Origin: the human T2T-CHM13v2.0 reference genome, Homo sapiens
Assembly (NCBI GenBank): GCA_009914755.4
Contig: CP086569.2
Coordinates: 17,408,001-17,472,000 of the forward strand
Direction of reading: 5' to 3'
DNA length: 64,000 bases
How positions within the stretch are numbered: the first letter of the stretch is position 1; each line of letters starts with the position of its first letter. The notes beneath the pieces are model-generated. The model was not told where the DNA came from. It did not search any database and saw only the letters and a program-made list of their open reading frames with translations. Of this stretch, positions 37,095 through 40,469 are shown piece by piece. The position numbers were made by a program, and so were the translations under genes.

Positions 37095-37200
37095 ATGTCA
37101 CTTTCATCCTGTTTTGCTTTTATCTCTCTCCTTTTCTCTCTCTTTCTCCCTCTTTCTATATGTGTTTGTTTTCATATGTGTGTGTGTGTTTTAATTTCTT
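37095..37200. repeat. CT-rich then GT-rich low-complexity tract
   Basis: The sequence ttatctctctccttttctctctctttctccctctttctatatgtgtttgttttcatatgtgtgtgtgtgttttaatttc is visible. Confidence 0.5.
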
Positions 37201-37210
37201 TTGTTCAATT

Positions 37211-38689
37211 TTTTTAAATTATACTTTAAGTTCTAGGATACATGAGGAAAACATCCAGGTTTTTTACATAGGTATAGAGATGCCATGGTAGTTTGCTGCA
37301 CCCATCAACCGAACATTGACATTAGCTATTTCTCTAAAGCTGTCCCTCCCTTGGCCCCCCATCCCCTGACAGGCCCCTGTGTTTGATGAACCCTGCCCTG
37401 TGTCCATGTGTTCTCATTGTTCAACTCCCAATTATGAGTGAGAACATGCAATATTTGGTTTTCTGTTCTTGTGTTAGTTTGTTAAGATGATGGTTTCCAA
37501 CTTCATCTATGTCCCTGCAAAGGACACTAACTCATTCTTTTTATGGCTGCATAGCATTCTATGTTGTATATGTGCTACATTTTCTTTATCCAGTCTATTA
37601 TTGATGGGCATTTAGTTTGATTCCAAGTCTTTGCTATTGTGAATAGTGCTCCAATAAACATATGTGTGCGTGTGTCTTTATAGCAGAATGATTTATAATC
37701 CTTTGAGTATATTCCCAGTAATGGAATTGCTAGGTCAAATGATATTTCTTTTTCTAGGTTCTTGAAGAATCGCCACACTTTCTTCCAAACTGGTAAAACT
37801 AATTTACACTGCCACCAACAGTGTAAAAGTATTCCCTATTCCTCCACATTCTCTCCAGCATCTGCTGTTTCCTGACATTTTAATGAATGCCATTCTAACT
37901 TGAGTGAGATGGTATCTCATGGTGGTTTTGACTTGCATTTCTCTAATGACCAGTGACAATGAGCTTTATTTTTTTCTCATATGTTTGTTGGCCGCATAAA
38001 TGTCTCTTTTCAGAAGTGTCTGTTCATATACTTCATCCATTTTTTAATATATTTGTTTGTTTTTTTCTTGTAAATTTGTTTAAGTTCCTTTTAGATTCAG
38101 GATATTAACCTTTTGTCAGATGGACAGATTGCAAAATTTTTCTCTCATTCCATAGTTGGCTCATTCATCCTGATGATTGCTTCTTTTGCTGTGCAGAAGC
38201 TCTTTAGTTTAATTAGATCTCATTTTTCAATTTTGGCTTTTGTTGCCGTTGCTTTTGGTGTTTTAGTCATTTGCTCATGTCTATATACTGAATGGTATTG
38301 CCTAGGTTTTCTTCTACAGTTTTTATGGTTTTAGGTCTTATATTTAAGTCATTAATCCACTTTGATTTAATTTTTGTATAAGGTGTAAAGAAGGGGTCCA
38401 GTTTTAGTTTTCTTCATATGGCTAGCCAGTTTTCCCAACACCATGTATTAAGTAGAGAATCTTTTCCCCATTGCTTGTTTTTATCAGATTTGTCAAAGAC
38501 CAGATGGTTGTAGACATGTGGCATTACTTCTGAGGCCTCTGTTCTGTTCCATTGGTCTATATATCTGTTTTGGTACCAGTATCATGCTATTTTGGTTACT
38601 GTATCCTTGTATTATAGTTTGAAGTCAGGTAGTGTAAACACTCCAGTTTTTTTCTTTTTGCTTAGGATTGTTCTGGCTATATATGGTTC
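37211..38689 (-). mobile_element. L1 3' segment (ORF2 C-terminus plus 3'UTR), the direct part of the second composite L1 insertion
   Basis: Poly-T, then aaattatactttaagttctaggatacatg... Antisense L1 3'UTR and ORF2 C-terminal coding sequence run to about 38689 (...gcttaggattgttctggctatat). Confidence 0.9.
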
Positions 38690-39016
38690 CTGACCCTCAT
38701 GTCTCCTGACTGGGAGACACCTCCCAGCACAGGTTGACAGACATCTCATACAAGAGAGCTCTGGCTGGCATCTGGCAAGTGCTCATCTGGGAAGAAGCTT
38801 CCAGAGGAAAGAACAGGCAGCAAACTTTGCTGTTCTGCAGCCTCCACTGGTGATACCCAGGCAAAAAGTGTCTGGAGTGGACCTCCAGCAAACTCCAGCA
38901 GACCTGCAGCACAGGGGCCTATTAGAAGGAAAACTAACAGAAATGAATAGGTTCAACACCAACAAAAAGGATGTACACCCAAAACCCCATCTGAATTTCA
39001 CCATCATCAAAGACCA

Positions 39017-39912
39017 ATGGTAGATAAATCCACAAAGATGAGGAATAAACAGCACATAAAGGCTGAAAATTCCAAAAACCAGAATGCTGCTTCTCCTCCA
39101 AAGGATCATAACTCCTCACCAGCAAGGTCACAAAACGGGATGGATAATGAGTTTAACAAACTGACAGAAGTAGGCTTCATAAGGTGGGGAATAGCAAACT
39201 CTTCTGACCTAAAGGAGCATGTTCTAACTCAATGCAAGGAAGCTAAGAATCTTGAAAAAAGAGTAGATGAATTTTTAACTAGAATAGTCAGTTTAGAGAA
39301 GAACATGAGTGACCAGATGGAGCTGAAAACACAGCAGGAGAACTTCATGAAGCATACACAAGTATCAATAGTGGAATCAATCAAGGGGAAGAAAAGATAT
39401 AAGAGATTGAAGATCAAATTAATGAAATAAAGGATGAAGACAATATTAGAGAAAAAAGAATAAAAAGGAATGAACAAAGCCTCCAAGAAGTATGGGACTA
39501 TGTGAAAAGACCAAACCTATGTTTGATTGATGTACCTGAATGTGACAGGGACAATGGAACCAAGTTGGAAAACACTCTTTGGTATATCAGCCAGAAGAAT
39601 TTCCCCAGCCTAGCAAGACAGGCCAATATTCAAATTCAGGAAATACAGAGAACACCACAAAGATATTCCTTGAGAAGAGCAACCCCAAGACACATAATCA
39701 TCAGATTCACCAAGGTTGAAATGAAGAAAATAATGTTAAGGGCAGCCAGAGAGAAAGGTTGGGTTACCCACAAAGGGAAGCCCATCAGATTAATGGAACA
39801 TCTATCTGCAGAAATCCTACAAGCCAGAAGAGAGTGGGGGCCAATATTCAGCATTCTTACAGAAAAGCATTTTCAATCCAGAATTTCATATCCAGACAAA
39901 ACAAGAGGCTAA
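39017..39912 (+). pseudogene. L1 ORF1 remnant (split into two frames)
   Basis: ORF 39017..39430 (...AENSKNQNAASPPKDHNSSPARSQNGMDNEFNKLTEVGF...LKEHVLTQCKEAKNLEKRVDEFLTRIVSLEKNMSDQMELKTQ) and ORF 39502..39912 (...RPNLCLIDVPECDRDNGTKLENTLWYISQKNFPSLARQANIQIQEIQRTPQRYS.RRATPRHIIIRFTKVEMKKIMLRAAREKG) match L1 ORF1p. Confidence 0.85.
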
Positions 39913-40118
39913 GCAAAGGAGAAATAAAATTCTTTACAGACAAGCAAATGCTGAGAGATTTTGTCACCACCAGGCCTAACTTACAATAGTTCATGAAGGA
40001 AGTGTTAAATATAGAATGGAAGAACTGGTACCAGCCACTGCAAAAACATACAAAATTGTAAAGACCATCAACACTATGAAGAAACTGCAACAACTAATGG
40101 GCAAAATAACCAACTAGC

Positions 40119-40330
40119 ATGATAGTGACAGGGTCAAGTTCACACATAACAATATTAACCTTAAATGTAAACGGGCTAAATGCCCCAGTTAAAAGACACA
40201 GACTGGCAAATTGTATAAAGAGTCATGACCCATCAGTGTGCTGTATTCAAGAGACCCATCTCACGTGCAAAGACACACATAGGCTCAAAATAAAGGGATG
40301 GAGGAATATTTACCAAGTAAATGGAAAGCA
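40119..40330 (+). pseudogene. L1 ORF2 endonuclease N-terminal remnant
   Basis: ORF 40119..40394 reads MIVTGSSSHITILTLNVNGLNAPVKRHRLANCIKSHDPSVCCIQETHLTCKDTHRLKIKGWRNIYQVNGKQKK. Confidence 0.85.
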
Positions 40331-40469
40331 AAAAAAAAAAAAAAAAAAGGTGTGTTTTAATTTCAATAGCTTTAGAGCTGCAAGTGGCTTTTGATTACAT
40401 GGCTGAATCATATAGTGATGAAGTCAGGGATTTTAGCTGACCTGTCACCAGAATAGTGTACAATGTACT

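What the first reader, a model, noticed from the sequence alone, without database searches (positions are those of the whole stretch)
37183..40364. Second composite L1 (3' segment antisense, 5'UTR-ORF1-EN segment sense) bounded by an exact 14-bp direct repeat, with internal A-tract priming
The antisense segment (ORF2 C-terminus plus 3'UTR, 37211-38689) and the sense segment (5'UTR end, ORF1, ORF2 EN start, 38690-40348) meet head to head. The word tgtgttttaatttc occurs just left of the poly-T end (about 37186-37199) and again just right of the composite (about 40351-40364). A single insertion event with TSD is therefore the best explanation. The outer end of the inverted segment stops exactly at the natural A-rich stretch of ORF2 (...ANGKQ KKAG, consensus gcaaaaaaaagcagg), here expanded to a19. 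That is consistent with the second primer annealing to this internal A-tract of the L1 RNA. About 2.3 kb of L1 between the two segments is absent.
Basis: partly seen in the sequence, partly recalled or inferred. Interest (0 to 1): 0.65.

Follow-up and report, generated by a model that had tools for sequence, protein, structure and literature searches.

The report
Inverted-and-deleted L1 insertion (twin priming)
An old LINE-1 retrotransposon copy was inserted in one event as two head-to-head pieces, a well-known by-product of how these elements copy themselves; it is ordinary apart from a run of 19 A's at one end whose origin is not settled.

Summary
An exact 15-bp direct repeat (GTGTGTTTTAATTTC, 37184-37198 and 40350-40364) encloses 3,151 bp made of two L1 arms. 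The antisense arm has an A-rich tail, the 3'UTR and ORF2 codons 855-1275. The sense arm has 354 bp of 5'UTR, ORF1 and ORF2 codons 1-71, then A19 and G. No other exact copy of the 14-mer exists in the window, and 0 of 20,224 same-distance control pairs share more than 11 bp. The strand nick next to the tailed arm reads TTTC/AA, an accepted L1 endonuclease site. Neither arm has its own duplication. Both arms are about equally diverged from a young L1 consensus (11.1% vs 12.8%). An independent public contig reproduces the inversion junction. This is a standard twin-priming insertion (5' inversion plus a 2.35-kb internal deletion) placed in the 3' end of an older L1. The inverted arm does start at the natural A8 tract of ORF2, whose next L1 base (G) is retained. 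That tract has expanded to 13 nt or more in 7 of 38 related copies where L1 continues. However, the second primer ends in ...AAAACACAC and has no T run, so "annealing" is not shown. A true poly(A) tail on a prematurely polyadenylated RNA remains a minor rival. Known kind, low interest.

The parts
37184..37198 (.). Left copy of the 15-bp target-site duplication GTGTGTTTTAATTTC
37199..37217 (-). Degenerate poly(A) tail of the non-inverted arm (reads TTTTGTTCAATTTTTTTAA on the + strand)
   Evidence: it directly follows the L1 3' end ...AAAGTATAAT
37218..37420 (-). L1 3'UTR of the non-inverted (poly(A)-primed) arm
   Evidence: alignment to L1 copies and references; ORF2 stop TGA at 37421-37423
37421..38683 (-). 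L1 ORF2 C-terminal part, codons 855-1275 plus stop (decayed)
   Evidence: PDB ORF2p match; tblastn 855-1275; 12.8% divergence from a young-L1 consensus
38681..38690 (.). Inversion junction where the 5'-most ends of the two cDNAs were joined. Best placed at 38683/38684. At most 3 nt are unassignable, and no demonstrable microhomology remains after decay
   Evidence: reproduced at 100% identity in an independent contig, L001
38684..39037 (+). 3' part of the L1 5'UTR; inner end of the inverted arm
   Evidence: alignment to the 5'UTRs of 27 L1 copies and to the other L1 in the window
39038..40061 (+). L1 ORF1 (decayed), codons 1-338 plus stop
   Evidence: PDB ORF1p match; tblastn
40062..40124 (+). 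Inter-ORF spacer
40125..40329 (+). L1 ORF2 endonuclease N-terminus, codons 1-68 plus the first base of codon 69
   Evidence: PDB ORF2p/EN residues 1-71, E=3e-38
40289..40294 (+). AATAAA hexamer 35 nt upstream of the A-run; relevant only to the premature-polyadenylation rival
   Evidence: conserved L1 sequence
40330..40349 (+). A19 plus G. This is the natural ORF2 A8 tract (codons Q69-K70-K71) lengthened by 11 A, then the first base of codon 72. It is the outer end of the inverted arm and the start point of the second cDNA
40350..40364 (.). Right copy of the 15-bp target-site duplication
40365..40746 (-). Context: 3' end of an older L1 into which the composite inserted. Its ORF2 residues 1221-1275 lie at 40746-40570; the 3'UTR runs to the duplication
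   Evidence: 42% aa identity; the 3'UTR extent is inferred from length

Best explanation
A single L1 retrotransposition event of the twin-priming type. The result is a 5'-inverted L1 with a 2.35-kb internal deletion, now an inert fossil. Steps: (1) L1 endonuclease nicked the + strand at TTAATTTC/AATAGC, inside the 3' end of an older L1. The site is shown; the enzyme is inferred. (2) That 3' end primed reverse transcription on the poly(A) tail of an L1 RNA. It copied the 3'UTR and ORF2 back to codon 855, giving the arm at 37199-38683. (3) The other strand was cut 15 bp away. Its 3' end (...GAAATTAAAACACAC) was extended by reverse transcriptase on an internal site of the same RNA. Synthesis started at the G just 3' of the A8 tract at ORF2 codons 69-71 and ran through ORF1 into the 5'UTR, giving the arm at 38684-40349. 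(4) The two cDNA ends were joined at 38683/38684, and filling of the gaps produced the 15-bp duplication. (5) The A8 tract grew to A19 by slippage, either during reverse transcription or later in the genome. Steps 3 and 5 are inferred. The start at one of the few long A-runs of L1 is probably not chance. It cannot be explained by primer complementarity, so it more likely reflects the enzyme's affinity for A-tracts.
For: The 15-bp exact duplication abuts both outer ends and exceeds all 20,224 same-distance controls. Neither arm has its own duplication; the longest shared words are 5 and 4 bp. The first-strand nick TTTC/A is an accepted EN motif (PMC12016303). The geometry is as the model predicts: the tailed 3' arm lies next to one duplication copy, and the inverted arm comes from L1 sequence further 5' with its 3'-most coordinate against the other copy. 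The arms are equally old. Divergence from a consensus of 25 real young L1 copies is 11.1% (93/835) vs 12.8% (158/1234), z about 1.2, and the control element in the window shows 9.2% vs 8.7%. An independent metagenome contig is 100% identical across the junction. In 42 related L1 copies the tract is GGAAAGC-A(7-8)-GCAGGGG, so the G after A19 is L1-templated. The tract is 13 nt or longer in 7 of 38 copies and 19 nt or longer in 4 of 38 copies in which L1 continues, including a pure A21. Only 4 A-runs of 7 or more exist in 5.3 kb of L1. 5' inversions occur in 18-51% of new L1 insertions and 66% of them carry internal deletions. Second-strand nicking during first-strand synthesis has been seen structurally.
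Against: The second primer has no T run and at most 1 nt of complementarity to the start site. The reason for starting at the A-tract is therefore not explained by the classical annealing step. The 2.35-kb gap and the start at L1 position about 2.2 kb lie far from typical values (median internal deletion 14.5 bp, median inversion junction 5.15 kb). A pure A19 is unusual: most expanded tracts in related copies are interrupted, and only 2 of the 38 copies in which L1 continues have a pure run of 15 or more. An AATAAA lies 35 nt upstream, so a real poly(A) tail is conceivable. No empty-site allele or orthologue could be examined. The divergence comparison uses a young-family consensus, not the element's own subfamily consensus.
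Confidence: 0.72

Rival explanations
1. Dual priming with two RNAs. The first nick primed on the poly(A) tail of a normal L1 RNA. The second nick primed on the genuine poly(A) tail of a second L1 RNA that had been prematurely polyadenylated after the AATAAA in the endonuclease region (a 'half-L1'-like transcript: 5'UTR-ORF1-first 70 ORF2 codons-An). On this reading A19 is that tail.
For: AATAAA at 40289-40294 lies 35 nt upstream of the run. A19 is pure and falls in the length range of retained tails (poly(T) of 14-39 nt in Meyer et al. 2010). The 2.35-kb gap between the arms needs no explanation if two templates were used. Dual priming has been proposed. Extension of the reciprocal end on a different mRNA has been seen in experimental clones. 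Premature polyadenylation and HAL1 elements are documented.
Against: The run starts exactly where the genomic A8 tract starts and is followed by the G that follows that tract in L1. A tail would not be followed by that G. 35 nt is at the long end of the usual signal-to-cleavage distance (from general knowledge). The primer has no T's to anneal to a tail either. The element's true tail, of the same age, has decayed (6 of 19 positions non-A) while this run is pure. That purity fits ongoing slippage as well as it fits a tail. The same tract is expanded in many uninterrupted copies.
Confidence: 0.12
2. The second reverse transcription began on the poly(A) tail, made an oligo(dT) stretch, and then switched template. 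The T-run re-annealed to the internal A8 tract of the same RNA and synthesis continued towards the 5' end.
For: This explains both the position (T-run/A-run pairing) and a run longer than 8. Twin priming with template switching has been reported. Variants in which the tail serves both primers have been proposed.
Against: It leaves the G between the run and the duplication unexplained. Switching variants are rare (23 of 1,703 inverted insertions). No direct evidence for it here.
Confidence: 0.06
3. The structure did not arise in one event. Either two independent L1 insertions landed side by side, or a later inversion/deletion rearranged a single L1.
For: The region is L1-rich and another composite L1 lies in the same window. 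The window's other long L1 is also broken at this A-tract.
Against: One 15-bp duplication encloses both arms and neither arm has its own. The arms have equal divergence. A simple inversion of a contiguous L1 cannot place the tail and the internal A-tract next to the two duplication copies.
Confidence: 0.04
4. Assembly artefact: two L1 copies were joined in error.
For: Contigs of L1 from contaminated assemblies are often mosaics (L075; L145).
Against: An independent 1,292-bp contig is 100% identical across the junction. The flanks rejoin into a continuous older L1 3' end plus tail.
Confidence: 0.01

Closest known systems
Twin-priming L1 insertions (5' inversion with internal deletion; Ostertag & Kazazian 2001, as described in PMC12016303 and bioRxiv 10.1101/2024.08.27.596794)
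   Same: One duplication pair, an EN-type first nick, and a tailed non-inverted 3' arm. The inverted arm is taken from further 5' on the RNA, with its 3'-most coordinate at the other duplication copy. There is an internal deletion between the arms.
   Different: The internal start lies far upstream (about 2.2 kb into L1, vs a median of 5.15 kb). The deletion is 2.35 kb (vs a median of 14.5 bp). The inverted arm (1.67 kb) is longer than the forward arm (1.49 kb). The start coincides with an A-tract now 19 nt long, with essentially no primer complementarity.
Poly(T)-headed L1 insertions and hypothetical 'dual priming' (Meyer, Srikanta, Conlin & Batzer 2010, PMC2837659)
   Same: A pure homopolymer of about 20 nt lies between a duplication copy and L1 sequence. 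Seen from the tailed arm it is T19 at the 5' end. The canonical EN site is at the opposite junction.
   Different: In their loci the poly(T) precedes a sense L1 and is read as the inverted tail with no L1 attached. Here the run sits at the 3' end of its own arm, coincides with an internal L1 A-tract, and is followed by the next L1 base. Both arms carry long L1 sequence.
3'-truncated L1 / half-L1 (HAL1) RNAs from premature polyadenylation (Perepelitsa-Belancio & Deininger 2003; Bao & Jurka 2010; cited via PMC4859970)
   Same: The sense arm has the content of such an RNA (5'UTR, ORF1, start of ORF2, A-run) and has an AATAAA upstream.
   Different: It has no duplication of its own and is joined head to head with a 3' arm. 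The run begins at a templated A8 and is followed by a templated G.

Membership tests
LINE-1 (primate L1PA-type) sequence | Homology to ORF1p and to ORF2p (endonuclease N-terminus and C-terminal segment), plus 3'UTR and A-rich tail | tested here: met
   PDB matches E=2e-80 (ORF1p), 3e-38 (EN) and 3e-68 (ORF2p 855-1076); tblastn map; DNA alignments
Target-primed reverse transcription insertion | Target-site duplication of about 7-20 bp directly abutting both ends | tested here: met
   15 bp exact; 0 of 20,224 same-distance controls exceeded 11 bp
Target-primed reverse transcription insertion | First-strand nick at an L1 EN motif (TTTT/A or a close variant) next to the poly(A) end | tested here: met
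   TTAATTTC/AATAGC = TTTC/A, listed as an EN motif in PMC12016303
Twin-priming 5' inversion | Two arms of opposite orientation inside one duplication pair. The inverted arm comes from L1 sequence 5' of the forward arm, with its 3'-most coordinate outermost | tested here: met
   Forward arm ORF2 855-end; inverted arm 5'UTR to ORF2 codon 72, with that end at the right duplication copy
Twin-priming 5' inversion | Both arms derive from one RNA (same subfamily and age) | tested here: inconclusive
   Divergence is 11.1% vs 12.8% from a young consensus, not significantly different. The element's own subfamily consensus was not available, and one RNA cannot be told from two contemporaneous RNAs
Twin-priming 5' inversion | Complementarity between the second-strand 3' end and the internal start site | tested here: not met
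   The primer ends ...AAAACACAC-3'. The template is ...A8-G-CAGGGG. At most 1 nt pairs. Microhomology is usual but not obligatory in published sets
Twin-priming 5' inversion | Pre-insertion allele lacks both arms together | not testable with these tools
   Locus-specific scans found nothing. Exact-protein look-ups of junction and flank ORFs found nothing
Dual priming / poly(T)-headed L1 (Meyer et al. 2010) | Homopolymer that is a true poly(A) tail copied at the second nick, not templated L1 sequence | tested here: inconclusive
   The run coincides with the templated A8 and is followed by the templated G. Its length of 19 exceeds the template. Orthologue run lengths are needed
Prematurely polyadenylated / HAL1-like L1 RNA | Poly(A) signal 10-30 nt upstream of the tail, and a tail at a non-templated position | tested here: inconclusive
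   AATAAA lies 35 nt upstream. The tail position is templated (A8), so the two readings cannot be separated from sequence alone

The most novel reading that the evidence does not exclude
The A19 is a genuine poly(A) tail. On this reading the locus is a sequence-resolved example of 'dual priming', in which the two ends of one L1 endonuclease break were each extended on the tail of a different L1 RNA. One of those RNAs would be a prematurely polyadenylated, half-L1-like transcript. In a weaker form, long internal A-runs act as surrogate poly(A) tails that recruit ORF2p to start the second cDNA without primer complementarity.
Probability: 0.15. Interest if true: 0.45.

Novelty: already known. Interest (0 to 1): 0.2.

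Why it matters
As it stands this is a routine fossil of a well-described side reaction of L1 integration, and it has no evident function. Its modest value lies in what it suggests. The internal cDNA may start at one of the few long A-runs of L1 even when the primer has no T's. If a genome-wide survey showed the same, it would mean that ORF2p's preference for A-tracts helps choose the internal start site in twin priming, rather than base pairing alone. The T19/A19 run is also a potential slippage-prone microsatellite and an ideal target for later L1 endonuclease cuts.

Tried and rejected
(1) Orthologous or empty-site search. Exact scans for the right junction plus flank in metagenome and genome contigs gave 0 hits. 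Exact-protein look-ups of ORFs spanning the right junction, the left junction and the right flank gave nothing.

(2) Homology search with the 91-aa ORF that runs through A19 into the flank. The only 100% hit (P0002, on contig L145) carries 244 nt identical to 40091-40334, including every private variant. Its left part is only 85% identical, and its right part continues as L1 after A5. I rejected it as an allele or orthologue; it is most likely a mosaic metagenome contig.

(3) A scan of viral contigs for L1 3' ends gave 0 hits, so no sample of old-subfamily 3' ends could be built. The age test therefore used a young-family consensus.

(4) Ostertag & Kazazian 2001 and Bao & Jurka 2010 are not held in the library. 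They are cited only through papers that describe them.

(5) Microhomology at the internal junction. A 7-nt match (TGGTTCC) exists only if a 10-bp deletion is assumed. I rejected this as unparsimonious.

(6) Apparent L1 copies that end at the A-tract in the sample (L061, L080, L085, L094, L101) are joined to unrelated, partly bacterial-looking sequence. I dismissed them as chimeras.
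Full report
**Observation.** The word TGTGTTTTAATTTC occurs exactly twice in the 64-kb window, at 37185-37198 and 40351-40364. With the preceding G the identity is 15 bp, at 37184-37198 and 40350-40364. I took 25-bp blocks at the same spacing across the window. The longest shared word never exceeded 11 in 20,224 positions, and only 2 of 39,916 random-spacing pairs reached 15. 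The repeat is therefore not a local low-complexity word and is far beyond chance.

**Anatomy.** Between the two copies lie 3,151 bp.
- 37199-37217 reads TTTTGTTCAATTTTTTTAA. This is the complement of a decayed A-rich tail that follows the L1 3' end ...AAAGTATAAT.
- 37218-38683 is antisense L1: the 3'UTR, the ORF2 stop at 37421-37423, and ORF2 codons 1275 back to 855. The evidence is the PDB ORF2p match and tblastn.
- 38684-40349 is sense L1. It holds about 354 bp of 5'UTR, ORF1 codons 1-338 at 39038-40058, the inter-ORF spacer, and ORF2 codons 1-71 from 40125.
- The sense arm ends GGAAAGC, A19 (40330-40348), G (40349). The right copy of the repeat follows.
- ORF2 codons 72-854 (about 2.35 kb) are absent.
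- The junction of the two arms is best placed at 38683/38684, give or take 3 nt. No microhomology can be demonstrated after this much decay.

**One event or two.** Neither arm has a duplication of its own; the longest shared words at the alternative boundaries are 5 and 4 bp. Removing 37199-40349 gives ...GTGTGTGTGTTTTAATTTC|AATAGCTTTAGAGC.... The right flank carries the C-terminus of an older antisense L1 (ORF2p residues 1221-1275 at 40746-40570). About 200 bp of 3'UTR would then end at the duplication, and the left flank is a CT/GT-rich stretch such as an old tail becomes. The composite therefore sits in the 3' end of an older L1; this last point is inferred from lengths. The + strand nick that gives the primer for the tailed arm is TTAATTTC/AATAGC, that is TTTC/A. 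A recent survey counts this as an L1 endonuclease motif. An independent 1,292-bp contig from a public metagenome assembly is 100% identical to 38189-39480, so the junction is not an assembly error of this window.

**Age of the two arms.** No repeat library is available here, so I built references in two ways.
Its ORF1 (338 aa) and ORF2 (1275 aa) are intact, and its last 430 residues are about 97% identical to solved human ORF2p. Against it, the conserved parts of the sense arm (ORF1 C-half, spacer, EN) are 87.6% identical and the ORF2 C-terminal arm is 87.4% identical.
- Second, and independent of memory, a pattern scan of public contigs returned 143 L1 copies. Twenty-five of them cover both regions and give a real-data consensus of young L1. 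The sense arm differs from it at 93 of 835 sites (11.1%) and the antisense arm at 158 of 1,234 sites (12.8%), z about 1.2. The other long L1 of the window gives 9.2% and 8.7%.

The arms do not differ in age by this measure. The caveat is that the consensus is of a younger family than the element itself.

**The A-run.** It is not target-derived, because the empty site has GT repeats there. In the 144 sampled copies the tract has two forms: GGAAAAC-A7-GGCAGGGG (young) and GGAAAGC-A7/8-GCAGGGG (older, n=42; ours is of this type). In the subgroup that shares our marker GAATATT-TACC, the run is 4-11 A. The source RNA therefore most likely had about A8 followed by G. That G is present after A19. The second G belongs to the duplication.

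The tract is unstable. In copies where L1 continues beyond it, the tract is 13 nt or longer in 7 of 38 and 19 nt or longer in 4 of 38. One is a pure A21 (L075). The other L1 in this window has AAAACAAAACAAAACAAAAAG. Growth from A8 to A19 is thus plausible but not common.

Only four A-runs of 7 or more exist in 5.3 kb of L1. A start within 2 nt of the edge of one of them has a chance probability of roughly 0.4%, so the coincidence is probably meaningful.

The second primer is 5'-...GAAATTAAAACACAC-3'. It has no T run, and at most one base pairs at the start site. "Annealing to the A-tract" is therefore not supported. If the tract guided the start, it did so through the enzyme's affinity for A-rich template (inference).

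**Mechanism and rivals.** The best account is twin priming. The first nick primes on the tail. The second strand is cut 15 bp away while first-strand synthesis is under way; second-strand nicking during first-strand synthesis has been seen structurally. The second end is then extended on an internal site of the same RNA, and the two cDNAs are joined.

5' inversions are found in 18-22% of L1 insertions in one long-read study and in 51% of somatic 5'-truncated solo-L1 insertions in another. Of the inverted insertions, 66% carry an internal deletion, and only 46% have the two cDNAs within 20 bp of each other.

This copy is atypical in degree. The internal start lies at about 2.2 kb (median 5.15 kb), the deletion is 2.35 kb (median 14.5 bp), and the inverted arm is the longer one.

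The main rival is that A19 is a true tail of a second, prematurely polyadenylated L1 RNA, with AATAAA 35 nt upstream. That would be "dual priming", as hypothesised by Meyer et al.. Use of a different mRNA at the reciprocal end has been observed experimentally. The retained templated G, the exact coincidence with the A8 tract and the frequent expansion of this tract elsewhere argue against it. I give it about 0.12. A variant with a template switch from the tail to the internal tract gets 0.06, two-step origins 0.04, and an artefact 0.01.

**Comparison with what is known.** The locus meets the defining features of an L1, of a target-primed insertion, and of a twin-priming inversion. The exceptions are primer/template complementarity (tested, not met; usual but not obligatory) and the empty-site test (not testable here). 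It is not one of the poly(T)-headed insertions of Meyer et al. In those the homopolymer precedes a sense L1 and carries no L1 of its own.

**What led nowhere.** These were the locus-specific scans, the exact-protein look-ups, a viral-contig scan and two papers that are not held. A homology search found contig L145, which shares 244 nt identical to 40091-40334 and then continues as L1 after A5. Its left part is only 85% identical and lacks all of our private variants. I read it as a mosaic contig, like other L1 contigs in the sample (L075 shows 6.3% vs 1.5% divergence between its halves). A real paralogue is not excluded.

**Verdict.** The A-tract start is real as a position but unproven as a mechanism. 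This is an ordinary example of a known process, so interest is low.

Noticed in passing
window 4440-5836: Another composite L1. Antisense ORF2 residues 398-603 (4452-5069) abut sense ORF2 residues 1099-1275 plus the 3'UTR and an A-rich tail (5069 to about 5826). It is flanked by an approximate repeat ...AAATAAAA(T)AATTAACC on both sides. This is a younger, typical twin-priming inversion with about 1.5 kb missing. Its inverted arm starts inside a short A5 run (GCAGAAA|AAGCC).
   Followed up: partly
window 12270-12460 (minus strand), within the near full-length L1 at about 8505-14900: This L1 is broken at the same endonuclease A-tract. The 5' piece ends ...GCAAATGGAGAGCCAAA at 12452. Then come 86 bp with no L1 similarity. 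L1 then resumes at 12365, about 90 nt further upstream, so those 90 nt are duplicated. The second A-tract is expanded to AAAACAAAACAAAACAAAAAG. The two copies of the duplicated stretch carry different subfamily markers (GAATATTTAC vs GAAGATCTAC), which suggests two elements or a template switch. Unexplained.
   Followed up: partly
window 40365-40746 and 37100-37183: The composite inserted into the 3' end of an older antisense L1 (ORF2p residues 1221-1275 at 40746-40570, 42% identity). The CT/GT-rich left flank looks like that element's decayed tail turned microsatellite.
   Followed up: partly
L145 (ENA ERZ27272765 k141_399985), positions 297-540: This metagenome contig holds 244 nt identical to window 40091-40334, including all private variants. 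It is flanked by sequence from other L1 copies and continues as L1 after only A5. It is probably a mosaic assembly of human contamination. A real paralogue or gene conversion is not excluded.
   Followed up: partly
L122-L144 (genome contigs) and L002-L121 (metagenome contigs): Twenty-three contigs from assemblies labelled as bacterial species representatives (Streptomyces, Mycobacterium, Campylobacter and others) are human-type L1, up to full length. That is, they are host or reagent contamination. Several are mosaics of different L1 subfamilies; for example, the two halves of L075 diverge 6.3% and 1.5% from the young consensus.
   Followed up: no
window 40119-40394 (+): A 91-aa open frame runs from the decayed ORF2 start through the A19 (as a run of lysines), across the duplication and into the flank. 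It arises only from the A-run length and has no sign of function.
   Followed up: partly
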